Positions 850-13,531 of a DNA stretch of 25,081 nt are shown here, in pieces. Under the pieces are notes generated by a model. The model ran no database searches, was not told where the DNA came from, and saw only the letters and a list, made by a program, of their open reading frames with translations. Source of the DNA: a virus; the UHGV virus genome UHGV-0233562; one strand, 5' to 3'. The translations under genes were made by a program, and so were the position numbers. Numbering within the stretch: position 1 is the stretch's first letter; every line of letters begins with the position of its first letter.

Positions 850-1056
850 ACATTGGCGAGGTAACGGTAGTTAAGTAGAATGGCTGCGGGTGCTTGAGGC
901 TATCTGCCTCGGGCATGAACACCAACGGCAGATAGAGAAAAGCCCCAGTTAACATTACGCGTCCTGCAAGACGCTTAACATTAATCTGAGGCCAATTTCA
1001 TGCTAGACACATGTAGGTTAGCCTCTTACGTGCCGAAAGGCAAGGAGAAGCAGGCT
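850..1056 (+). promoter_or_regulatory. hok mRNA 5' leader region (tac-like element, long stem 899-907/926-934, mok-like upstream start at 1000)
   Basis: GCTTGAGGCTATCTGCC...GGCAGATAGAG and ...CAAGGAGAAGCAGGCTATG resemble the hok-family leader as I recall it from plasmid R1. GGCGAGG at 855-861 is complementary to CCTCGCC at 1237-1243 downstream of hok, as in tac/fbi pairing. Boundaries approximate. Confidence 0.5.
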
Positions 1057-1212
1057 ATGAAGCAGCAAAAGGCGATGTTAATCGCCCTGATCGTCATCTG
1101 TTTAACCGTCATAGTGACGGCACTGGTAACGAGGAAAGACCTCTGCGAGGTACGAATCCGAACCGGGCAGACGGAGGTCGCTGTCTTCACAGCTTACGAA
1201 CCTGAGGAGTAA
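1057..1212 (+). CDS. hokD: Hok/Gef-family type I toxin (51 aa)
   Basis: MKQQKAMLIALIVICLTVIVTALVTRKDLCEVRIRTGQTEVAVFTAYEPEE: single TM helix followed by the conserved Hok periplasmic tail (RKDLCEV..TGQTEVAVF.AYE). Matches my recollection of E. coli HokD/RelF. An in-frame ATG at 1000 would give a 70-aa product. Confidence 0.85.
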   Translation: MKQQKAMLIALIVICLTVIVTALVTRKDLCEVRIRTGQTEVAVFTAYEPEE

Positions 1213-1281
1213 GAGACCCGGCGAGGGAGAAATCCCTCGCCACCTCTGATGTGGCAGGCATCCTCAACGCACCCGCACTTA

Positions 1282-1310
1282 ACCCGCTTCGGCGGGTTTT
1301 TGTTTTTATT
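1282..1310 (+). terminator. Rho-independent terminator after hok
   Basis: ACCCGC-TTCG-GCGGGT hairpin followed by TTTTTGTTTTTATTTT. Confidence 0.6.
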
Positions 1311-1428
1311 TTCAACGCGTTTGAAGTTCTGGACGGTGCCGGAATAGAATCAAAAATACTTAAGTAGCGCGCAGGGATAAGAGGGATGGTCCCTTAAAGG
1401 GGAGAGCTAATTATCCGGAAGGATTCTG

Positions 1429-1680
1429 ATGATGAACATCGAAGAACTGCGTAAAATTTTTTGTGAAGATGGCCTCTATGCGGTGTGCGTTGAAAATGGA
1501 AATCTTGTTAGTCATTACCGCATTATGTGTTTGCGAAAGAATGGGGCTGCGTTAATTAATTTTGTGGATGGTCGAGTGACAGACGGATTTATCTTGCGCG
1601 AAGGTGAGTTTGTCACTTCATTACAGGCACTGAAAGAGATCGGAATAAAAGCAGGCTTTTCAGCTTTTGCAGAAGAATAA
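1429..1680 (+). CDS. rem: Small protein of unknown function (83 aa), Rem-like by size and position next to hok
   Basis: ORF with SD GGAAGG upstream of ATGATG. Length and location (between hok and the ydfU-like gene) match the Qin prophage rem gene as I recall it; name assigned from memory, not from a search. Confidence 0.6.
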   Translation: MMNIEELRKIFCEDGLYAVCVENGNLVSHYRIMCLRKNGAALINFVDGRVTDGFILREGEFVTSLQALKEIGIKAGFSAFAEE

Positions 1681-1746
1681 ACTCATCTACAATCTTGCGC
1701 GGGGCTGAACTCCCGCTGAGTAACACCGTGCCACCGGAGAAAACCG

Positions 1747-2025
1747 ATGGCACGCAACGTAAAATATTACAATTCTGATAATTCGCCCGTTCTTGCCTGC
1801 ACGCACGAGCGGTATTCTCACGCATTCAAGTCTGAATGGTTCCAACACCCTCCATGCACTGAAGAGCAGGCTGAATGGATAATTCAGTGTTACCGCAGGC
1901 GCGGATACGAGGTTAAGAAAGCCCTTAGTCTCGACTACCGTCACTGGATAATCTCAGTCAGATTGCCTTACTCCGAACGCCCACCACGTGCGTCCCGCAC
2001 TTTCCAGCAACGGATCTGGAGGTAA
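1747..2025 (+). CDS. Hypothetical protein (92 aa), translationally coupled to the downstream DUF968 gene
   Basis: SD GGAGA at 1735-1739, ATG 1747; stop TAA 2023-2025 lies 1 nt before the GTG start of the next gene, inside that gene's SD. No family recognised. Confidence 0.5.
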   Translation: MARNVKYYNSDNSPVLACTHERYSHAFKSEWFQHPPCTEEQAEWIIQCYRRRGYEVKKALSLDYRHWIISVRLPYSERPPRASRTFQQRIWR

Positions 2026-2026
2026 C

Positions 2027-3076
2027 GTGCGGGTATTACTTAGACCTGTTCTGGTGCCTGAGCTTGGGCTGGTGGTCCTTAAGCCGGGCCGTGAATCCAT
2101 ACAGATATTTCATAATCCTCGAGTGCTGGTGGAACCGGAACCAAAAAGCATGCGTAATCTGCCATCCGGAGTCGTTCCTGCCGTTGGCCAGCCGCTGGCG
2201 GAAGACAAAACATTGCTGCCGTTTTTTAGTAACGAACGGGTGATTCGTGCTGCTGGCGGCGTTGGCGCATTGTCTGACTGGCTATTACGTCATGTTACAT
2301 CCTGCCAGTGGCCTAATGGAGATTACCATCACACTGAAACAGTCATTCACCGTTATGGTACCGGCGCAATGGTGTTGTGTTGGCACTGCGACAACCAACT
2401 GCGTGACCAGACATCGGAATCACTGGAGCTGCTTGCTCAACAAAATCTGACAGCATGGGTGATTGACGTCATCCGTCACGCAATAAGCGGTACGCAGGAG
2501 CGGGAATTATCTTTGGCTGAATTATCCTGGTGGGCGGTCTGCAATCAGGTGGTGGATGCACTACCTGAGGCTGTATCGCGTCGTTCGCTGGGATTACCAG
2601 CGGAAAAAATCTGCTCGGTGTACCGCGAAAGCGACATCGTACCGGGAGAGCAGACCGCCACCAGCATACTGAAACAGCGCACAAAAAATCTTGCGCCGCT
2701 GCCTCACGCCCACCAGCAACAGAACCCACCACAGGAAAAGACGGTGGTCAGCATTGCCGTTGATCCTGAGTCTCCGGAATCTTTCATGAAACGACCTAAA
2801 CGTCGCCGCTGGGTTAACGAGAAATACAAACGCTGGGTGAAGACACAGCCGTGTGCGTGTTGTGGTAAGCCAGCCGACGATCCCCATCACCTGATTGGTC
2901 ATGGTCAGGGCGGAATGGGGACAAAATCTCACGATATTTTCACGCTACCGCTGTGTCGGGAGCATCACAACGAGCTTCATGCGGATCCTCTGGCGTTCGA
3001 AGAAAAGCATGGTTCTCAGGTTGATTTAATTTTTCGTTTTCTTGATCACGCCTTTGCAACTGGCGTGCTTGGGTAA
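2027..3076 (+). CDS. ydfU: DUF968/YdfU-family protein with C-terminal HNH-type zinc-finger nuclease motif (349 aa)
   Basis: SD GGAGG 2018-2022, GTG 2027 in frame with the 1988 track ORF. C-terminus CACCGKPADDPHHLIGHGQGGMGTKSHDIFTLPLCREHHNELH has the CxxC...D.HH...C..HH...H pattern of HNH endonucleases. Length equals what I recall for E. coli YdfU. Confidence 0.8.
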   Translation: MRVLLRPVLVPELGLVVLKPGRESIQIFHNPRVLVEPEPKSMRNLPSGVVPAVGQPLAEDKTLLPFFSNERVIRAAGGVGALSDWLLRHVTSCQWPNGDYHHTETVIHRYGTGAMVLCWHCDNQLRDQTSESLELLAQQNLTAWVIDVIRHAISGTQERELSLAELSWWAVCNQVVDALPEAVSRRSLGLPAEKICSVYRESDIVPGEQTATSILKQRTKNLAPLPHAHQQQNPPQEKTVVSIAVDPESPESFMKRPKRRRWVNEKYKRWVKTQPCACCGKPADDPHHLIGHGQGGMGTKSHDIFTLPLCREHHNELHADPLAFEEKHGSQVDLIFRFLDHAFATGVLG

Positions 3077-3088
3077 AAGAGGTGACTG

Positions 3089-3445
3089 ATGCTCATAGAT
3101 TTGGTTTTACCTTACCCGCCGACGGTGAACACTTACTGGCGACGCCGTGGCAGCACATATTTTATCTCGGAGGAGGGAAAGCGTTATCGCCGGGCTGTGG
3201 CGCTTATTGTTCGCCAGCAGCGGCTGAAATTAAGCCTGTCCGGAAGGCTGGCGATAAAGGTGATTGCAGAGCCACCGGATAAGCGTCGTCGCGACCTGGA
3301 CAATATCCTGAAAGCACCGCTGGATGCGCTGACGCATGCGGGAGTGTTAATGGACGATGAGCAGTTTGATGAAATCAATATCGTTCGTGGTCAGCCAGTA
3401 TCTGGCGGACGTCTGGGGGTGAAGATTTACCCCATAATGCATTAA
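3089..3445 (+). CDS. rusA: Crossover junction endodeoxyribonuclease RusA (Holliday junction resolvase)
   Basis: 118 aa; ..YPPTVNTYWRRRG...RRRDLDNILKAPLDALTHAGVLMDDEQ..GGRL matches the conserved RusA core (RRRDLDN, catalytic Asp cluster). Confidence 0.9.
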   Translation: MLIDLVLPYPPTVNTYWRRRGSTYFISEEGKRYRRAVALIVRQQRLKLSLSGRLAIKVIAEPPDKRRRDLDNILKAPLDALTHAGVLMDDEQFDEINIVRGQPVSGGRLGVKIYPIMH

Positions 3446-3459
3446 GAGCAGGTCAAAAA

Positions 3460-4281
3460 ATGAAACTGGAAGATTTACCGAAATACTACTCCCCAAAATC
3501 CCCTGGCCTGACCGATGCATCGGCCTCAACGTCAAAAGATGCGCTGAGTATCACTGATGTGATGGCCGCGCAGGGCATGACACAGAATCGGGCTGAGATG
3601 GGTTTTTCTGCGTTCCTGGGGAAAATGGGCATCAGTATGAATGACAGGGCGCGGGCAACAGAATTACTGGCAGATTATGCACTCAGTCGGTGCGATCGTG
3701 TGGCGGCGTTGAGAAAACTTCCGGCAGAAATAAAACCGGTAGTGATGCGCATTATGGCTTCGTACGCTTTTGAGGATTATGCCCGCAGCGCAGCGAGTAA
3801 AAAGCAGTGCCCTTGTTGCTATGGGGAAAAATTTATTGAAAGCATAGTTTTTACAAACAAGGTCCAGTATCCGGATGGTAAGCCGCCGGTATGGGCAAAG
3901 TGTACGAAAGGTGTGTATCCGTCTTACTGGGAAGAATGGAAAAAAGTCAGGGAGGTGGTAAAAGTTGCCTGTCCGGAGTGTGGCGGAAAGGGTGAGGTTT
4001 CCACCGCCTGTAAGGATTGCCGTGGGCGTGGTGTCGCCATTCATCGTGAAGAGTCGGTAAAACGTGGTATGCCTGTTGTCAGAGACTGCCAGCGTTGTGG
4101 TGGTCGTGGCTATGAAAGACTACCATCAACGGAGGCATTTAATGCTATATGCGAGGTGACAAACCAGATAACACGCGCGTCATGGGAAAAAACAGTTAAG
4201 AAATTCTATGATGCGCTGGTGACCCGGTTTGATATTGAAGAAGCATGGGCTGAGCGGCAGTTAAAAAAGGTAACTAGGTAA
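3460..4281 (+). CDS. Q: Late-gene antitermination protein Q (zinc-binding, phage 21/82-type)
   Basis: 273 aa with CxxC clusters (CPECGGKGE...CKDCRGRG...CQRCGGRG); sits immediately upstream of a promoter/terminator pair and the lysis-head-tail operon, the canonical Q position. Confidence 0.85.
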   Translation: MKLEDLPKYYSPKSPGLTDASASTSKDALSITDVMAAQGMTQNRAEMGFSAFLGKMGISMNDRARATELLADYALSRCDRVAALRKLPAEIKPVVMRIMASYAFEDYARSAASKKQCPCCYGEKFIESIVFTNKVQYPDGKPPVWAKCTKGVYPSYWEEWKKVREVVKVACPECGGKGEVSTACKDCRGRGVAIHREESVKRGMPVVRDCQRCGGRGYERLPSTEAFNAICEVTNQITRASWEKTVKKFYDALVTRFDIEEAWAERQLKKVTR

Positions 4282-4330: not shown

Positions 4331-4362
4331 TTTTTATGCCTGACGTTAGAAGAGTTTCTACA

Positions 4363-4387
4363 ACCCGCCGCCGAGCGGGTTTTTTAT
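4363..4387 (+). terminator. tR'-like rho-independent terminator
   Basis: ACCCGC-CGCCGA-GCGGGT hairpin followed by TTTTTTATT, about 80 nt after Q, consistent with the short terminated transcript that Q modifies. Confidence 0.6.
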
Positions 4388-4424: not shown

Positions 4425-4500
4425 GGCCCTTTAGCTCAGTGGTGAGAGCGAGCGACTCATAATCGCCAGGTCGCTGGTTCAAATCCAGCAAGGGCCACCA
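4425..4500 (+). tRNA. ileZ: tRNA-Ile2 (anticodon CAU, lysidine-type; ileX/ileY-like)
   Basis: GGCCCTTTAGCTCAGTGGTGAGAGCGAGCGACTCATAATCGCCAGGTCGCTGGTTCAAATCCAGCAAGGGCCACCA: 76 nt, 7-bp acceptor stem, CT-CAT-AA anticodon loop, GGTTCAAATCC T-loop, encoded CCA. Near-identical to E. coli ileX as recalled. Confidence 0.85.
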
Positions 4501-4600
4501 TCACAAACCGCCATTAGCTTATCAGGAAGAGCAGACGACACGATAACAGGGTTGTTGGTGCGGGGGCGGGTCCCCGATGGCGGTCCATTATCGGTATTCA

Positions 4601-4677
4601 GCGTTGTTAGCTCAGCCGGACAGAGCAATTGCCTTCTAAGCAATCGGTCACTGGTTCGAATCCAGTACAGCGCGCCA
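4601..4677 (+). tRNA. tRNA-Arg (anticodon UCU, reads AGA/AGG)
   Basis: GCGTTGTTAGCTCAGCCGGACAGAGCAATTGCCTTCTAAGCAATCGGTCACTGGTTCGAATCCAGTACAGCGCGCCA: 77 nt, acceptor stem with one G-U pair, CT-TCT-AA anticodon loop, GGTTCGAATCC T-loop, encoded CCA. Confidence 0.85.
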
Positions 4678-5141: not shown

Positions 5142-5674
5142 ATACATATCTGGATTATCACCTGTTACGGTAAAAAGTGATTGCTTACTGTTTTTGTGAA
5201 TGGCATTGCAGCAGCCGGATAATGTCAGTGCTGGCTGACGGTGTGCTGGTGGCGGGTGTGGTGGTTGTTGCTTTCCCGTTGCTGAAAAAGAAAACGCCAG
5301 ACTGTTAGCCGGGTATCAGTTAGCGGGAGAAATTTTTAAATACTTCACAATTCAGGCGGTTGACTGTTCTCTGGTTTGCGGGGAGTTTGTTAAAAGAAAC
5401 TGGCATGGTGAATCCCCCTGTGCGGAGGGGCAATCAGCGAGTAGGTATATGGGATAATCGCGGATTCAGGTGCTGGTACTGAATTCACCGGGAGGCACCC
5501 GGCACCATGCACTTCAATAGATTCTCTCCACATTATGGATATTCTTTCAGAATATCCCACGCAGACTTTGTGTAAATGTTAACAAATGTGCGTTTTATTT
5601 GATCTGATTCGCTGTTTGAGCGTCCAAAACAACGGTATATATAATCCTTTACTATATGACATATGTGAGGAAAA

Positions 5675-8456: not shown

Positions 8457-8819
8457 ATTAATATTAAATCGGATTATTTTTAGCGCTGAATGTGAAATTT
8501 AAATAAAAAGGACTCTTCCATGAGTCAAAATCCTTGAAATCTTAAGGGTAAGATAAAAGGTCATTAGACAGAATGACACGTTTTATTAATAAATAAAGCT
8601 ATTGTTTCATTCGTGTGTTTTTCTTTACAAAAGTAATCCTTGCTATGGTTGGTTAATCATGCGTTAATGGTGTTCTGGTTTGTTACAAAATTATCTGAAG
8701 CAGTCATTGTTATAATTTTATTATTTGTACCTCTTGAGATTTCCTTGTTGGTTTTTCTCTCTGATATTTTTTTTCGGACCATTCTGCCCAAGGGCTAACT
8801 TCTTCAAAAGGTAATAATG

Positions 8820-9032
8820 ATGTCTAACAAAATGACTGGTTTAGTGAAATGGTTTAACCCTGAAAAAGGTTTTGGTTTCATCACGCCGAAAGATGGTAGC
8901 AAAGATGTGTTTGTGCATTTCTCAGCTATTCAGAGCAACGATTTCAAAACGTTAACTGAGAATCAGGAAGTCGAATTTGGTATTGAGAACGGACCTAAAG
9001 GCCCTGCAGCTGTTCATGTAGTGGCACTTTGA
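8820..9032 (+). CDS. CspA-family cold-shock protein (CspB/CspI-like)
   Basis: [38 protein letters not shown]...: cold-shock domain with RNP1 (KGFGFI) and RNP2 (VFVHF) motifs; preceded by a long AT-rich leader of about 360 nt. Confidence 0.9.
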
Positions 9033-9238
9033 GGTAGAAAATATTACAAACCATATTCACTTTAGATGCCCGTGTTGCCATGGTTCTCAGTATAGAACAT
9101 CATCTTTTGATGTTTCTGACAGAAATCCTTTCGGGGCAAAATGTATCTTTTGTAAATCAATGATGATTACATTTGATAATATTTCACAATACTTAAATGT
9201 TAGCCATCTGTCGTTAGATTTAAGAAAGTGAAAATGAA

Positions 9239-10934: not shown

Positions 10935-11429
10935 ATGGATCGAGAGTTAAAAAATCTGACGCTGAATATCAGTCAATTGGCGGCACTGTCAGGTGTACAT
11001 CGCCAGACTGCTGCGGCAAGGCTGCAAAATCTACCCGTTGCAGGGGGGCATGAAAGCAACCTCAAGCTTTATCGGGTGGTTGATATTGTGTCGGCATTTC
11101 TGGCATTACCACCGCCGGTTGCAGAAGGCGAAATGGACGCACATGAGCGCAAAGCCTGGTATCAGTCTGAACGTGAGCGTCTTAAGTTCGAACAGGAAAC
11201 GGCACAACTCATTCCGGCCAGTGATGTCAGACGGGAGTTTGCCATCTGGGCAAAAGCGGTCGTGCAGGTGCTGGAGACATTACCGGATATTCTTGAACGT
11301 GACTGCGGTCTGCAGCCTGCCGCTGTGAGCCGTGTTCAGTCCATTATTGATGATCTGCGCGATCAGATAGCCCTGCGGGTGACTGAACCAGGTGCGGATG
11401 ATGAGGAGGAATTACAGCAGGAGGAGTAA
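10935..11429 (+). CDS. Nu1: Terminase small subunit (Nu1-like)
   Basis: 164 aa directly upstream of, and overlapping (TAATG), the large terminase; N-terminal helix-turn-helix-like region (LNISQLAALSGVHRQTAAARLQ) and acidic C-terminus. Confidence 0.8.
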   Translation: MDRELKNLTLNISQLAALSGVHRQTAAARLQNLPVAGGHESNLKLYRVVDIVSAFLALPPPVAEGEMDAHERKAWYQSERERLKFEQETAQLIPASDVRREFAIWAKAVVQVLETLPDILERDCGLQPAAVSRVQSIIDDLRDQIALRVTEPGADDEEELQQEE

Positions 11430-13531
11430 TGCTGAATCAGGAAACCGCAAAGGCAGCACGAACCGATTCAGGTTATATCCTTCGCGCACCGAGACGAATG
11501 CGGGTTGCTGATGCCGTTGCTCAGTATATGCGGGTGCCCATGGGGGCAGGGAACTCAGTCCCATGGGATCCGCTGGTGGCACCGTATGTTATTGAGCCTA
11601 TGAACTGCCTGGCCTCGCGTGAATACGACGCAGTGATATTTGTTGGCCCGGCACGAACCGGCAAGACTATCGGCCTGATTGACGGCTGGGTGATTTACAA
11701 CGTGATTTGCGATCCTGCTGATATGCTGATCATTCAGATGACGGAGGAAAAAGCCCGCGAACACTCCAAAAAACGACTCGCCAGAACGTTTCGCGTCAGC
11801 CCGGAAGTGGTCAGTCGCCTGAGTCCGAACAAAAATGACAACAACGTTTATGACAGAACATTCCTTGCTGGCAACTACCTGAAAATCGGCTGGCCGTCAG
11901 TCAATATCATGTCTTCATCAGATTATAAATGCGTGGCGCTGACGGATTATGACCGTTTTCCGGAAGATATTGATGGTGAGGGGGATGCCTTCTCTCTTGC
12001 CTCAAAACGTACCACCACATTTATGTCCAGTGGTATGACGCTGGTGGAGAGTTCCCCCGGCAGGGATGTGAAGGATGTGAAATGGCGACGGACTTCACCG
12101 CATGAGGCTCCACCAACCACGGGGATCCTGTCGCTCTATAACCGTGGCGATCGCCGTCGCTGGTACTGGCCCTGTCCACACTGTGGTGAGTATTTTCAGC
12201 CCTGCGGCGATGTGGTTGCTGGTTTCCGTGATATTGCCGATCCTGTGCTGGCAAGTGAGGCGGCTTATATTCAGTGTCCTTCCTGTTCAGGACGGATTTT
12301 GCCTGAACAAAAACGCGAGCTGAACGGACGTGGGGTCTGGTTACGGGATGGTGAATCCATCAATGCAGATGGCAGTCGTTATGGTGATCCCCGGCGTTCA
12401 CGTATTGCGTCATTCTGGATGGAGGGTCCGGCAGCTGCTTATCAGACACTCTCGCAACTCGTTTACAAACTGCTTACTGCAGAACAGGAATACGAGACAA
12501 CCGGAAGTGAAGAGACACTCAAGACGGTTATCAATACCGACTGGGGATTACCTTATCTTCCCCGCGCCAGCATGGAGCAACGAAAAAGTGAATTGCTTGA
12601 GCAGCGGGCAGAGCCAGTTCCTTCCCGCAGTGTGCCGGATGGCGTTAATTTCCTTGTGGCGACAGTGGATGTGCAGGCGGGACGTCATCGCCGTTTTGTG
12701 GTTCAGGTAACGGGCTATGGCAGCCGTGGCGAACGCTGGATTATTGATCGTTACAACATCACGCAGTCATTGCGCGGTGACAGCGACGGGGAGAGCCAGC
12801 GAATTGATCCGGCCAGCTATCCGGAAGACTGGGATGTCCTGCTGACGGATGTTTTTCATAAAAGCTGGCCGCTGGCCTCCGACCCTTCTCAACAAATGCG
12901 ACTGATGGCAATGGCGGTGGACTCCGGCGGTGAAGACGGGGTCACTGATAATGCCTATAAATTCTGGCGTCGTTGCCGTCGTGATGGCCTTGGTAAACGT
13001 ATTTACCTGTTTAAGGGCGACAGCATCCGGCGAGCAAAACTGATCACCCGTACATTCCCTGATAACACCGGACGAACGGGCCGACGGGCGCAGGCCGCAG
13101 GTGATGTGCCGCTCTGGCTTCTTCAGACGGATGCCCTGAAAGACCGGGTGAATAACGCGTTATGGCGTGACTCGCCAGGTCCCGGCTATGTGCATTTCCC
13201 TGACTGGCTGGGGAGCTGGTTTTACGACGAACTGACGTATGAAGAGCGGAGCAGTGACGGGAAATGGAGTAAGCCGGGTCGCGGTGCCAACGAAGCTTTT
13301 GACCTGATGGTGTATGCCGAGGCTCTGGTCATTCTGCATGGATACGAAAAGATCCGCTGGCCGGATGCACCGGAGTGGGCGAGCCGGGAAACCTGGCTGG
13401 AGTGTGTCCCGGACAGTACCGAACCGTCACCCTCACCGGAACCGGTACCCACGCCTGTTAAAAAACAAAAACGGAAGAAAACAGTAACTGACGATGTTAA
13501 CCCCTGGCTGACTTCCGGAGGATGGTTATGA
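11429..13531 (+). CDS. A: Terminase large subunit (lambda gpA family)
   Basis: 700 aa; Walker A-like VGPARTGKT, and WYWPCPHCGEYFQP resembling lambda gpA's ACPHCGEE zinc-finger-like motif; canonical gene order. Confidence 0.95.
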   Translation: MLNQETAKAARTDSGYILRAPRRMRVADAVAQYMRVPMGAGNSVPWDPLVAPYVIEPMNCLASREYDAVIFVGPARTGKTIGLIDGWVIYNVICDPADMLIIQMTEEKAREHSKKRLARTFRVSPEVVSRLSPNKNDNNVYDRTFLAGNYLKIGWPSVNIMSSSDYKCVALTDYDRFPEDIDGEGDAFSLASKRTTTFMSSGMTLVESSPGRDVKDVKWRRTSPHEAPPTTGILSLYNRGDRRRWYWPCPHCGEYFQPCGDVVAGFRDIADPVLASEAAYIQCPSCSGRILPEQKRELNGRGVWLRDGESINADGSRYGDPRRSRIASFWMEGPAAAYQTLSQLVYKLLTAEQEYETTGSEETLKTVINTDWGLPYLPRASMEQRKSELLEQRAEPVPSRSVPDGVNFLVATVDVQAGRHRRFVVQVTGYGSRGERWIIDRYNITQSLRGDSDGESQRIDPASYPEDWDVLLTDVFHKSWPLASDPSQQMRLMAMAVDSGGEDGVTDNAYKFWRRCRRDGLGKRIYLFKGDSIRRAKLITRTFPDNTGRTGRRAQAAGDVPLWLLQTDALKDRVNNALWRDSPGPGYVHFPDWLGSWFYDELTYEERSSDGKWSKPGRGANEAFDLMVYAEALVILHGYEKIRWPDAPEWASRETWLECVPDSTEPSPSPEPVPTPVKKQKRKKTVTDDVNPWLTSGGWL

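What the first reader, a model, noticed from the sequence alone, without database searches (positions are those of the whole stretch)
1747..3076. Translationally coupled two-gene unit: unknown 92-aa ORF plus DUF968 protein with an HNH nuclease motif, next to RusA
The 92-aa ORF stops 1 nt before the GTG of the DUF968 gene, inside its Shine-Dalgarno, implying coupled expression. The DUF968 protein ends in a recognisable HNH zinc-finger nuclease signature (CACCGK..DDPHHLIGH...LCREHHNELH), while its roughly 250-aa N-terminal region is unassigned. A nuclease of unknown specificity with a small obligate partner in the nin region could serve recombination or replication (it neighbours RusA) or could be an anti-host or exclusion function.
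Basis: partly seen in the sequence, partly recalled or inferred. Interest (0 to 1): 0.5.

Follow-up and report, generated by a model that had tools for sequence, protein, structure and literature searches.

The report
Common prophage nuclease gene pair
This is an ordinary, already catalogued pair of prophage genes found in most E. coli genomes: a small conserved protein of unknown function followed by the HNH-type nuclease YdfU. The small protein is a frequent neighbour of recombination nucleases in general, not YdfU's obligate partner.

Summary
A 92-codon ORF (1747-2025) ends 1 nt before the GTG of ydfU (2027-3076), and a GGAGG lies in its last codons. RusA and Q follow. The ORF is a real gene: its core has dN/dS of 0.07-0.18, indels are in frame, and it matches phrog_1212.

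YdfU carries an invariant CxxC...HH...CxxHH...H motif. This is not new: the K-12 orthologue is already placed in His-Me finger group 7. The junction is present in 4542 of 5426 complete E. coli genomes.

New here:
- The N-terminal half is a separate confident domain with an invariant Cys/His cluster. It is not Orf/NinB-like.
- P1 PdcB is a full-length relative.

The 'obligate partner' idea fails. At least 114 of 175 phage records with a YdfU-like gene lack the small protein. Its roughly 66-aa relatives sit directly upstream of RusA, NinG/Rap, YbcO or DUF968 genes.

The likeliest role is a nin-region recombination module. Activity and any physical partnership remain untested.

The parts
1736..1739 (+). 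Shine-Dalgarno (GGAG) of ORF92, 7 nt before its ATG
   Evidence: Read from the sequence.
1747..2025 (+). ORF92: small basic protein (pI 9.7), identical to WP_032140164.1 and a member of phrog_1212. Residues 1-26 are a fast-evolving, disordered extension. Residues 27-92 are the conserved core, about 66 aa (beta-alpha-beta-beta plus a C-terminal helix).
2018..2022 (+). GGAGG Shine-Dalgarno of ydfU, embedded in the last two sense codons (Trp-Arg) of ORF92. It lies 4 nt before GTG 2027. The ORF92 stop codon occupies 2023-2025.
   Evidence: The same TGGAGG, TGGGGG or TGGGAG plus stop junction recurs in family members that are tightly joined to their downstream gene.
2027..3076 (+). ydfU: 349-aa DUF968 protein, a His-Me finger (HNH) nuclease.
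   Evidence: Pfam DUF968 at 2.5e-76 and phrog_96 'HNH endonuclease' at 2e-171. PGAP annotation agrees.
2192..2605 (+). YdfU N-terminal domain (residues 56-193): confidently modelled, mostly helical, with a beta-hairpin plus helix at 105-125. No relative of known function found.
2303..2395 (+). Invariant Cys/His cluster of the N-domain (C93 Q94 ... H101 ... C118 W119 H120 C121. N123). Presumed zinc site.
   Evidence: Invariant in 30 homologues of 50-93% identity. Zinc binding is inferred, not shown.
2606..2812 (+). Disordered linker (residues 194-262). It ends in a very basic stretch, residues 250-275, with 10 K/R in 26 residues.
   Evidence: AF2 pLDDT below 50. Composition.
2852..2980 (+). HNH / beta-beta-alpha-metal motif. 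Presumed Zn ligands are C276, C279, C310 and H313. Presumed catalytic and metal residues are H288, H314 and H318.
   Evidence: Invariant or nearly invariant in alignment A4. Aligned to PhiNM1 Gp16 residues C145/C148/H157/C181/H184/H185/H189. Strands 285-288 and 306-309 and helix 311-319 in the AF2 model.
3089..3445 (+). rusA, Holliday-junction resolvase. Same operon.
   Evidence: Pfam RusA at 1.8e-17. Annotation.
3460..4281 (+). Antiterminator Q, the end of the nin-like module.
   Evidence: Pfam Antiterm at 1.4e-54.
1281..1308 (+). Terminator-like hairpin plus T-run after hokD. It marks the likely upstream limit of the rem-ORF92-ydfU-rusA-Q transcription unit. The next convincing one lies after Q, at 4362-4381.
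   Evidence: This is a consensus scan only and the unit is inferred.

Best explanation
The region is the late-early ('nin-like') recombination module of a Qin-type lambdoid prophage of E. coli. The genes rem, ORF92, ydfU, rusA and Q are probably transcribed as one unit.

ORF92 is a real, small, basic protein of a conserved family (phrog_1212) whose typical member is about 66 aa. The family occupies the slot that NinE holds in DLP12 and lambda-type nin regions. In most arrangements seen it sits immediately upstream of a structure-specific nuclease gene. Its last codons (Trp plus Arg, Gly or Glu) also serve as the ribosome-binding site of that downstream gene, so the two are made together.

YdfU is a two-domain His-Me finger nuclease:
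- an N-terminal domain with an invariant Cys/His cluster, presumably for zinc and for binding DNA or a partner protein;
- a disordered basic linker;
- a C-terminal HNH core homologous to the RecA-dependent nickases P1 Ref and PhiNM1 Gp16.

The most likely mechanism is that YdfU nicks branched or RecA-bound DNA such as D-loops, alongside RusA. This would help phage recombination and recombination-dependent replication.

Shown here: gene reality, domain layout, conservation, homologies and gene neighbourhoods. Inferred: nuclease activity, substrate, any RecA dependence, and any physical link between ORF92 and a nuclease. ORF92 is most likely a dispensable DNA-binding helper of the module, not a YdfU-specific subunit.
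For: Gene reality and junction.

Module context:
- RusA and Q lie downstream.
- No convincing terminator-like site lies between 1300 and 4362.
- In several phages homology to the window starts at about 1730, just before ORF92 and without rem.

HNH core:
- Pfam DUF968 at 2.5e-76.
- Invariant C276, C279, H288, C310, H314 and H318 in 30 homologues.
- AF2 gives a beta-beta-alpha element.
- hhalign: E 2.9e-5 to Ref and E 7.4e-8 to Gp16. BLASTP to Gp16 gives 39% identity over 59 aa, sharing CxxCGKP...LCREHHNExHA.
- Gp16 is an experimentally shown nickase whose cleavage RecA enhances (PMC12817073). Ref is a RecA-dependent HNH nuclease with an unstructured basic N-terminal segment (PMC4330346 abstract). 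YdfU has a comparable basic disordered stretch before its core.
- The literature already places YdfU in His-Me finger group 7 and proposes a recombination role (PMC5714182).

ORF92 family neighbours:
- Over 84 loci the next gene is RusA-like in 62, NinG in 9, YdfU in 8 and YbcO-type HNH in 2.
- In 9 of 11 distinct gene arrangements the next gene is a nuclease.
- phiES15 has ybcN-ORF66-HNH-rusA-Q where DLP12 has ybcN-ninE-ybcO-rusA.
- The family is basic, with median pI 9.7.
Against: - No biochemical or genetic data exist for YdfU or ORF92.
- The Pfam HNHc_6 score (the Gp16 family) is 22 bits, below its 26.6 cut-off.
- YdfU lacks the NinB-like N-domain of Gp16.
- RecA dependence cannot be read from sequence.
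- P1 PdcB, a full-length YdfU relative, has lost the catalytic histidines. The scaffold may therefore also have a non-catalytic function.
- The neighbour counts are dominated by near-identical Klebsiella-type prophages and are not independent events.
- Conserved gene order alone could explain the adjacency.
Confidence: 0.55

Rival explanations
1. ORF92 has a function unrelated to the nucleases. Its position upstream of them reflects only conserved nin-region gene order and the compact, overlapping layout of phage early operons.
For: - Every gene junction in these regions is tight or overlapping, whatever the partner. Examples are Rha-ydfU and KilA-N-ydfU and ybcN/ninE/ybcO/rusA/ylcG in DLP12.
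- ORF92 relatives are followed by four unrelated nuclease families and sometimes by a methyltransferase or an unknown ORF.
- In locus L006, ORF92 is 72% identical to the window copy while YdfU is 91% identical. Mosaic exchange therefore occurs between the two genes.
- The predicted fold is generic.
Against: - In 9 of 11 distinct arrangements a nuclease gene comes next, across rearrangements that permute RusA and YdfU.
- The small gene stays with the nuclease genes when rem or NinB-like genes are swapped out.
Confidence: 0.3
2. ORF92 is an antitoxin- or immunity-like inhibitor that neutralises a toxic YdfU nuclease.
For: - It is a small upstream gene, translationally coupled to the nuclease gene.
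- The homologous nuclease Gp16 arrests growth when overexpressed (PMC12817073).
- One genome carries an in-frame ORF92-YdfU fusion, P0125.
Against: - At least 114 of 175 phage records with a YdfU-like gene, and 8 of 21 genome loci, lack any ORF92 relative.
- ORF92 relatives occur with only RusA or NinG nearby.
- The protein is basic, whereas known DNase immunity proteins are typically acidic (general knowledge; pI).
- PADLOC gave no hit, and NCBIfam gave none for ORF92 or YdfU.
- The fusion is a single case.
Confidence: 0.08
3. YdfU is mainly an anti-host or exclusion weapon: it degrades or nicks host or competitor DNA rather than serving as a recombination enzyme.
For: - Gp16 suppresses host replication, and P1 Ref increases ciprofloxacin lethality (PMC12817073 and PMC4713147).
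- Prophages often carry such functions.
Against: - No match to defence-system models.
- Across Enterobacterales the gene sits between replication genes and Q, with RusA, NinG or NinB-type genes (PMC5714182).
- It lies in a lytic-cycle operon, not a lysogen-expressed accessory ('moron') gene.
Confidence: 0.12
4. YdfU is the terminase-associated HNH nuclease needed for cos cleavage and packaging, as gp74 is in HK97.
For: It is an HNH protein in a cos-type lambdoid phage.
Against: - It lies about 8 kb upstream of the lambda-like small and large terminase ORFs (10935-13531), separated by Q, tRNAs and the lysis genes.
- Packaging HNH genes normally abut the terminase genes (general knowledge).
- Its nearest relatives are Ref, Gp16 and YbcO, not packaging HNHs.
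Confidence: 0.03

Closest known systems
E. coli K-12 YdfU (b1560, Qin prophage), Pfam DUF968, His-Me finger group 7 of Jablonska et al. 2017
   Same: - The K-12 protein is 92% identical over the full length.
- It has the same position downstream of rem and the (unannotated) ORF92.
- It has the same HNH motif.
   Different: In K-12 Qin, ydfU is followed directly by Q (ydfT). In the window, rusA lies between them. No function has been tested for either copy.
Staphylococcus phage PhiNM1 Gp16 (Pfam HNHc_6), a RecA-dependent nickase (NAR 2026, PMC12817073)
   Same: - The HNH core is homologous, with the same CxxCGKP...H...LCREHHNExHA signature. hhalign gives E 7.4e-8 and BLASTP gives 39% identity over 59 aa.
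- Both are phage early-region genes with RusA encoded nearby.
   Different: - Gp16 has a NinB/Orf-like N-domain (per the paper). YdfU instead has an unrelated Cys/His-cluster domain and a long disordered linker.
- YdfU scores below the HNHc_6 gathering threshold.
- RecA dependence of YdfU is untested.
Phage P1 Ref (PDB 3plw), a RecA-dependent HNH endonuclease
   Same: - Both have a disordered, strongly basic segment before the HNH core.
   Different: Ref is 186 aa with no folded N-domain. It belongs to a different Pfam family (RecA_dep_nuc) and sits in a different genomic setting, under C1 repressor control near cre.
DLP12 YbcO (DUF1364, PDB 3g27) and lambda NinG/Rap
   Same: They occupy the same slot in nin regions, before RusA and/or Q. 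They are His-Me finger nucleases (YbcO putative, NinG predicted) and are preceded by a small protein: NinE in DLP12, or an ORF92 relative in mEp237, phiES15, Gifsy-2 and SPN3UB.
   Different: - They are much shorter: YbcO is 96 aa and NinG about 200 aa. Neither has the YdfU N-domain.
Phage P1 PdcB
   Same: It is a full-length homologue of YdfU, covering the N-domain, linker and C-domain (hhalign E 6e-42, 332 aligned columns). It also follows a 66-aa ORF, PdcA.
   Different: - The catalytic histidines are replaced (CQSCQRDIE in place of CREHHNELH) while the cysteines are kept.
- PdcA is unrelated to ORF92.
- It lies after phd/doc, not in a nin region.
NinE (lambda, DLP12)
   Same: It holds the same position between an Orf/YbcN-type gene and the nuclease gene, is a similarly small protein (56-60 aa), and has no known function.
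   Different: There is no detectable sequence relationship to ORF92 or its family.

Membership tests
His-Me finger / HNH nucleases (Pfam DUF968, PF06147) | Score above the family's curated Pfam threshold | tested here: met
   255.9 bits against a cut-off of 27.8; residues 160-346 cover the whole model.
His-Me finger / HNH nucleases (Pfam DUF968, PF06147) | Beta-beta-alpha-metal fold | tested here: met
   [not shown]
His-Me finger / HNH nucleases (Pfam DUF968, PF06147) | Conserved zinc ligands (CxxC...CxxH) and catalytic/metal histidines | tested here: met
   C276, C279, H288, C310, H314 and H318 are invariant. H287 and H313 are conserved in at least 90% of 30 homologues of 50-93% identity. H313 is replaced by Cys in the Enterobacter type.
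His-Me finger / HNH nucleases (Pfam DUF968, PF06147) | Metal-dependent nuclease activity | not testable with these tools
   Needs purified protein.
RecA-dependent HNH nucleases (P1 Ref, PhiNM1 Gp16) | Homologous catalytic core | tested here: met
   [not shown]
RecA-dependent HNH nucleases (P1 Ref, PhiNM1 Gp16) | Membership of the Gp16 Pfam family HNHc_6 (score above threshold) | tested here: not met
   22.0 bits against a cut-off of 26.6, and only residues 271-319 match. Gp16 itself scores 389 bits.
RecA-dependent HNH nucleases (P1 Ref, PhiNM1 Gp16) | Cleavage stimulated by, or dependent on, RecA | not testable with these tools
   Needs a biochemical assay or an interaction test.
Orf/NinB-HNH fusion proteins (DUF968 as described by Curtis et al. 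2014) | N-terminal domain with the Orf/NinB fold or sequence | tested here: not met
   [not shown]
phrog_1212 (about 66-aa nin-region proteins, unknown function) - for ORF92 | Significant match over the full profile | tested here: met
   E 1.7e-35; residues 27-92 match profile positions 1-66 of 66. Relatives at 35-46% identity occur in Gifsy-1/2, N15, PY54, mEp237 and others.
NinE family (PF05322) - for ORF92 | Sequence or profile similarity to NinE | tested here: not met
   No Pfam hit. hhalign against DLP12 NinE gives probability about 0.1%. Only the position is equivalent.
Translationally coupled gene pair | Stop and start within a few nt, with the downstream SD inside the upstream ORF, conserved among relatives | tested here: met
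   GGAGG-TAA-C-GTG. The 1-nt gap is kept in Escherichia loci. A G-rich Trp-Arg/Gly/Glu codon pair plus stop recurs at tight junctions in other family members.
Translationally coupled gene pair | Downstream translation depends on upstream translation | not testable with these tools
   Needs reporter fusions with an ORF92 stop-codon or start-codon mutation.
Toxin-antitoxin / nuclease-immunity pair | Strict co-occurrence of the two genes | tested here: not met
   Each gene occurs without the other in many phages and genomes.

The most novel reading that the evidence does not exclude
phrog_1212 proteins such as ORF92 could be dedicated accessory factors that deliver or restrain phage junction nucleases (RusA, NinG/Rap, YbcO, YdfU) on branched DNA. 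YdfU could be a RecA-dependent D-loop nickase. Because it is present in about 84% of E. coli genomes, it could then modulate SOS responses or quinolone lethality, as P1 Ref does.
Probability: 0.15. Interest if true: 0.6.

Novelty: already known. Interest (0 to 1): 0.27.

Why it matters
As a discovery it matters little. Both genes are annotated in thousands of genomes, and the HNH nature of YdfU has been published.

The useful outputs are testable hypotheses for two uncharacterised genes (of the E. coli 'y-ome'):
- YdfU shares its catalytic core with the only two HNH nucleases shown to work with RecA.
- A conserved 92-codon gene under purifying selection is missing from the reference MG1655 annotation.
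- A widespread small nin-region protein family tracks recombination nuclease genes.

If YdfU does act with RecA, cryptic Qin-like prophages could influence DNA-damage responses in most E. coli strains.

Tried and rejected
1. ORF92 as a NinE homologue: no Pfam hit and hhalign negative.
3. The YdfU N-domain as a degenerate duplicate of the HNH domain. This was suggested by the CQW..DYHH..LCWHCDN motif and a weak BLAST segment. hhalign of the N-domain against the C-domain gave E 0.096 over 5 columns, so it is rejected as unproven.
4. P1 PdcA (66 aa, upstream of the YdfU homologue PdcB) as a distant ORF92 relative: negative.
5. Rem as a homologue of the 81-aa ORF that sits upstream (about 130 nt away) of the small gene in Klebsiella-type loci: no alignment.
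6. Defence-system models (PADLOC) gave none for ORF92, YdfU or Rem. NCBIfam gave none for ORF92 or YdfU.
7. Sequence searches of the PDB for YdfU, its profile and the ORF92 family profile: nothing significant.
9. A locus search with the diverse family alignment failed for lack of a conserved block. A single member was used instead.
10. A dedicated promoter for ORF92: the TTTGCA-16-TACAAT match at 1666-1693 is no more than chance gives (3 sites found, 3.7 expected).
11. Programmed frameshifting between ORF92 and ydfU: it would need a +1 shift. The only fusion seen (P0125) occurs in a single genome.
Full report
**What is in the window**

ORF92 runs from ATG 1747 to TAA 2023-2025. A GGAG lies 7 nt upstream of its start. 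One base separates its stop from GTG 2027 of a 349-codon gene that ends at 3076. GGAGG at 2018-2022 lies inside ORF92's last two sense codons.

The flanking genes are as follows:
- Upstream: the hok/sok locus (888-1212) and rem (1429-1680).
- Downstream: rusA (3089-3445), an antiterminator Q gene (3460-4281) and two tRNA genes.

The 2.1-kb stretch 1400-3500 is 100% identical to many E. coli chromosomes. NCBI's PGAP pipeline annotates exactly these two genes there, as 'hypothetical protein' WP_032140164.1 and 'ydfU: DUF968 domain-containing protein'. The stretch is also identical to the recombinant phage mEp460_ev081. The rest of the window carries lambda-like lysis, terminase, head and tail genes, and no sequenced phage matches it over its full length. 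It is therefore a Qin-type lambdoid prophage.

**Is ORF92 a gene?**

Yes.
- Among Escherichia copies that differ by up to 35% in protein sequence, the frame is always open and indels are in frame.
- Codons 27-92 have dN/dS of 0.07-0.18 (0.25 in one pair). Codons 1-26 evolve almost neutrally (0.3-1.1).
- The AF2 model agrees with this split. Residues 1-23 are disordered. Residues 27-74 form a beta-alpha-beta-beta unit, with block-mean pLDDT of about 85 over residues 31-70. A C-terminal helix follows.
- The core matches phrog_1212 end to end, a family of 66-residue proteins with no known function.
- A profile search of 1.84 billion representative proteins finds only 74 related clusters, most of them 66 aa long. 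tblastn finds relatives at 35-46% identity in 61 phage records. These include Gifsy-1 and -2, N15 ('orf QD1'), PY54, mEp237, SPN3UB, phiES15 and phages of Klebsiella, Edwardsiella, Hafnia and Erwinia.
- The family is basic, with median pI 9.7.
- It has no Pfam, NCBIfam, PADLOC or PDB relative. Its model matches only generic alpha/beta folds.

**Is ORF92 the partner of YdfU?**

Within E. coli the pair is very stable. A 560-nt probe across the junction matches 4542 of 5426 complete genomes, and 4370 of them carry at least 80% of it in one piece. Outside this lineage the link breaks in both directions.

YdfU without the small protein:
- Among 21 usable species-representative genome loci with a YdfU relative, 8 have no ORF92 relative nearby. 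There ydfU abuts or overlaps a Rha or KilA-N regulator gene.
- The non-catalytic part of YdfU has relatives in 175 phage records, whereas the ORF92 family occurs in 61. At least 114 records therefore have YdfU alone. Examples are SfV, SfII, SfIV, mEp390, the original mEp460, Stx2c phages, Vibrio phages and P1.

The small protein without YdfU next to it. Its relatives sit directly upstream of:
- RusA, with or without YdfU after it;
- NinG/Rap (Gifsy-2, SPN3UB, GF-2);
- a 96-aa YbcO-type HNH protein (mEp237, phiES15);
- a DnaQ-like exonuclease fused to Lar (N15);
- a cytosine methyltransferase (an Erwinia phage);
- an unknown ORF (PY54).

Over 84 loci the next gene is RusA-like in 62, NinG in 9, YdfU in 8 and YbcO-like in 2. 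These loci are dominated by near-identical Klebsiella-type prophages. The fairer count is 9 of 11 distinct gene arrangements with a nuclease gene next.

phiES15 has ybcN-ORF66-HNH-rusA-Q where DLP12 has ybcN-ninE-ybcO-rusA. The family therefore fills the NinE slot, although it is not related to NinE in sequence.

Where the small gene is tightly joined to its neighbour, its last codons are Trp plus Arg, Gly or Glu, written TGGAGG, TGGGGG or TGGGAG. This supplies the next gene's ribosome-binding site. In most members with a 48-84 nt gap to the next gene, the residue(s) after this Trp are different. Coupled expression is thus a conserved feature. It is coupled to whichever gene follows, however, and tight junctions are the rule throughout these operons.

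**What is YdfU?**

Pfam DUF968 covers residues 160-346 (E 2.5e-76). PHROGs calls the whole protein an HNH endonuclease. In 30 homologues of 50-93% identity, C276, C279, H288, C310, H314 and H318 never vary.

None of this is new. Jablonska et al. (2017) name K-12 YdfU as a member of His-Me finger group 7, together with YbcO (PDB 3g27). They note RusA, Q and antirepressor genes as neighbours and propose a recombination role like that of NinG (PMC5714182).

The AF2 model (mean pLDDT 67) resolves four parts:
- Residues 1-55: conserved in sequence but modelled with low confidence.
- Residues 56-193: a confident domain, with 10-residue-block pLDDT of 72-93, mostly above 80. It is mostly helical, with a beta-hairpin and helix at 105-125 that carry the invariant C93, H101, C118-W-H-C121 and N123.
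- Residues 194-262: a disordered linker ending in a very basic stretch.
- Residues 263-344: the beta-beta-alpha HNH core.

Profile comparison confirms homology of the core to two proteins:
- Ref, at E 2.9e-5.
- PhiNM1 Gp16, more strongly, at E 7.4e-8, with 39% identity over 59 residues and the shared CxxCGKP...LCREHHNExHA signature.

Gp16 was shown in January 2026 to be a nickase that binds RecA, whose cleavage RecA enhances, and which promotes phage replication (PMC12817073). Ref has an unstructured basic segment before its core that is needed for function (PMC4330346 abstract), and YdfU has a comparable one.

The resemblance stops at the core.
- Gp16 has a NinB-like N-domain. YdfU does not.
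- YdfU scores below the threshold of Gp16's Pfam family, HNHc_6.
- I could not show that the YdfU N-domain is a degenerate copy of the HNH domain.
- The N-domain is widespread. P1 PdcB is a full-length homologue (E 6e-42) that keeps the cysteines but has lost the catalytic histidines.

**Most likely mechanism**

Shown here:
- a co-oriented gene block (rem, ORF92, ydfU, rusA, Q) with no convincing terminator-like site between 1300 and 4362 (the single transcription unit is inferred);
- an SD-in-ORF junction;
- a conserved small basic protein;
- an intact HNH active site whose nearest characterised relatives are nickases that work with RecA.

Inferred:
- YdfU nicks branched or RecA-bound DNA.
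- It acts with RusA to process recombination and replication intermediates during lytic growth.
- The N-domain binds zinc and provides contacts with DNA or a partner protein.
- ORF92 is a DNA-binding helper of the module rather than a YdfU-specific subunit.

I put 0.55 on this overall picture. I put about 0.35 on RecA dependence specifically and about 0.3 on any direct ORF92-nuclease cooperation.

The rivals are:
- ORF92 is functionally unrelated and merely syntenic (0.3).
- YdfU is an anti-host weapon (0.12).
- ORF92 is an immunity-type inhibitor (0.08).
- YdfU is a packaging HNH (0.03).

**Verdict**

The finding is real but ordinary and already catalogued. The 'small obligate partner' reading is not supported.

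The residual value lies in three leads:
- the homology of the YdfU core to Ref and Gp16;
- the nuclease-tracking behaviour of the phrog_1212 family;
- an intact, selected 92-codon gene that the reference MG1655 annotation omits.

Noticed in passing
L002 2307-2585, minus strand (NC_000913.3 1644306-1644584): The K-12 MG1655 reference annotation leaves a 346-nt gap between rem and ydfU. That gap holds an intact ORF92 orthologue, 92% identical in protein and under purifying selection. PGAP annotates it in other K-12 derivatives such as BW25113.
   Followed up: partly
window 2010-2029 and junctions in L016, L025-L036: In the ORF92 family, the codons for the invariant C-terminal Trp plus Arg, Gly or Glu (TGGAGG, TGGGGG or TGGGAG) also form the ribosome-binding site of the next gene. 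In most members separated from the next gene by 48-84 nt, the residue(s) after this Trp are different.
   Followed up: partly
L108 877-2148 (phage P1 pdcA-pdcB): P1 PdcB is a full-length YdfU homologue (hhalign E 6e-42). Its catalytic histidines are replaced while the zinc cysteines are kept. It follows a 66-aa ORF, PdcA, which is unrelated to ORF92.
   Followed up: partly
protein P0125: One E. coli genome encodes an in-frame fusion of ORF92 (residues 1-89) directly to the start of YdfU. It is a single case, so it may be a mutation or an assembly or annotation artefact.
   Followed up: no
window 3076-3460 compared with L002 1242-1256: The window has rusA between ydfU and Q. K-12 Qin has ydfU followed directly by Q (ydfT). 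Some genomes even have a YdfU-Q read-through fusion of 607 aa (P0126-P0128).
   Followed up: no
window 888-1308: A complete hok/sok type I toxin-antitoxin locus: an Rfam sok match at 888-1062, hokD ending at 1212 and a strong terminator-like hairpin at 1281-1298.
   Followed up: no
window 4425-4677: Two phage-borne tRNA genes lie just after Q and its terminator. ARAGORN calls the first Met (anticodon CAT), but PGAP calls it Ile, which implies a lysidine-modified Ile2 type. The second is Arg (TCT). This resembles the rare-codon tRNA sets of Stx phages.
   Followed up: no
window 5374-5564 and 8662-9078: Rfam matches to the sRNA STnc100 and to the cspA-type thermoregulator leader. The leader lies upstream of the prophage cold-shock gene cspI.
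   Followed up: no
LR597641.1 36258-38358: In the deposited mEp460_ev081 record, ORF92 is not annotated and the ydfU region is labelled 'Phage antitermination protein Q'. This is probably an annotation error. Other records name ORF92 'toxin to Rem'; I did not trace the source of that name.
   Followed up: no
window 2027-2191 (YdfU residues 1-55): This segment has many invariant residues (R2, L4, G14, V16, P20, G21, F28, R32, L34, P39, G48, Q55), yet AF2 models it with low confidence. It may fold only on binding a partner or DNA.
   Followed up: no
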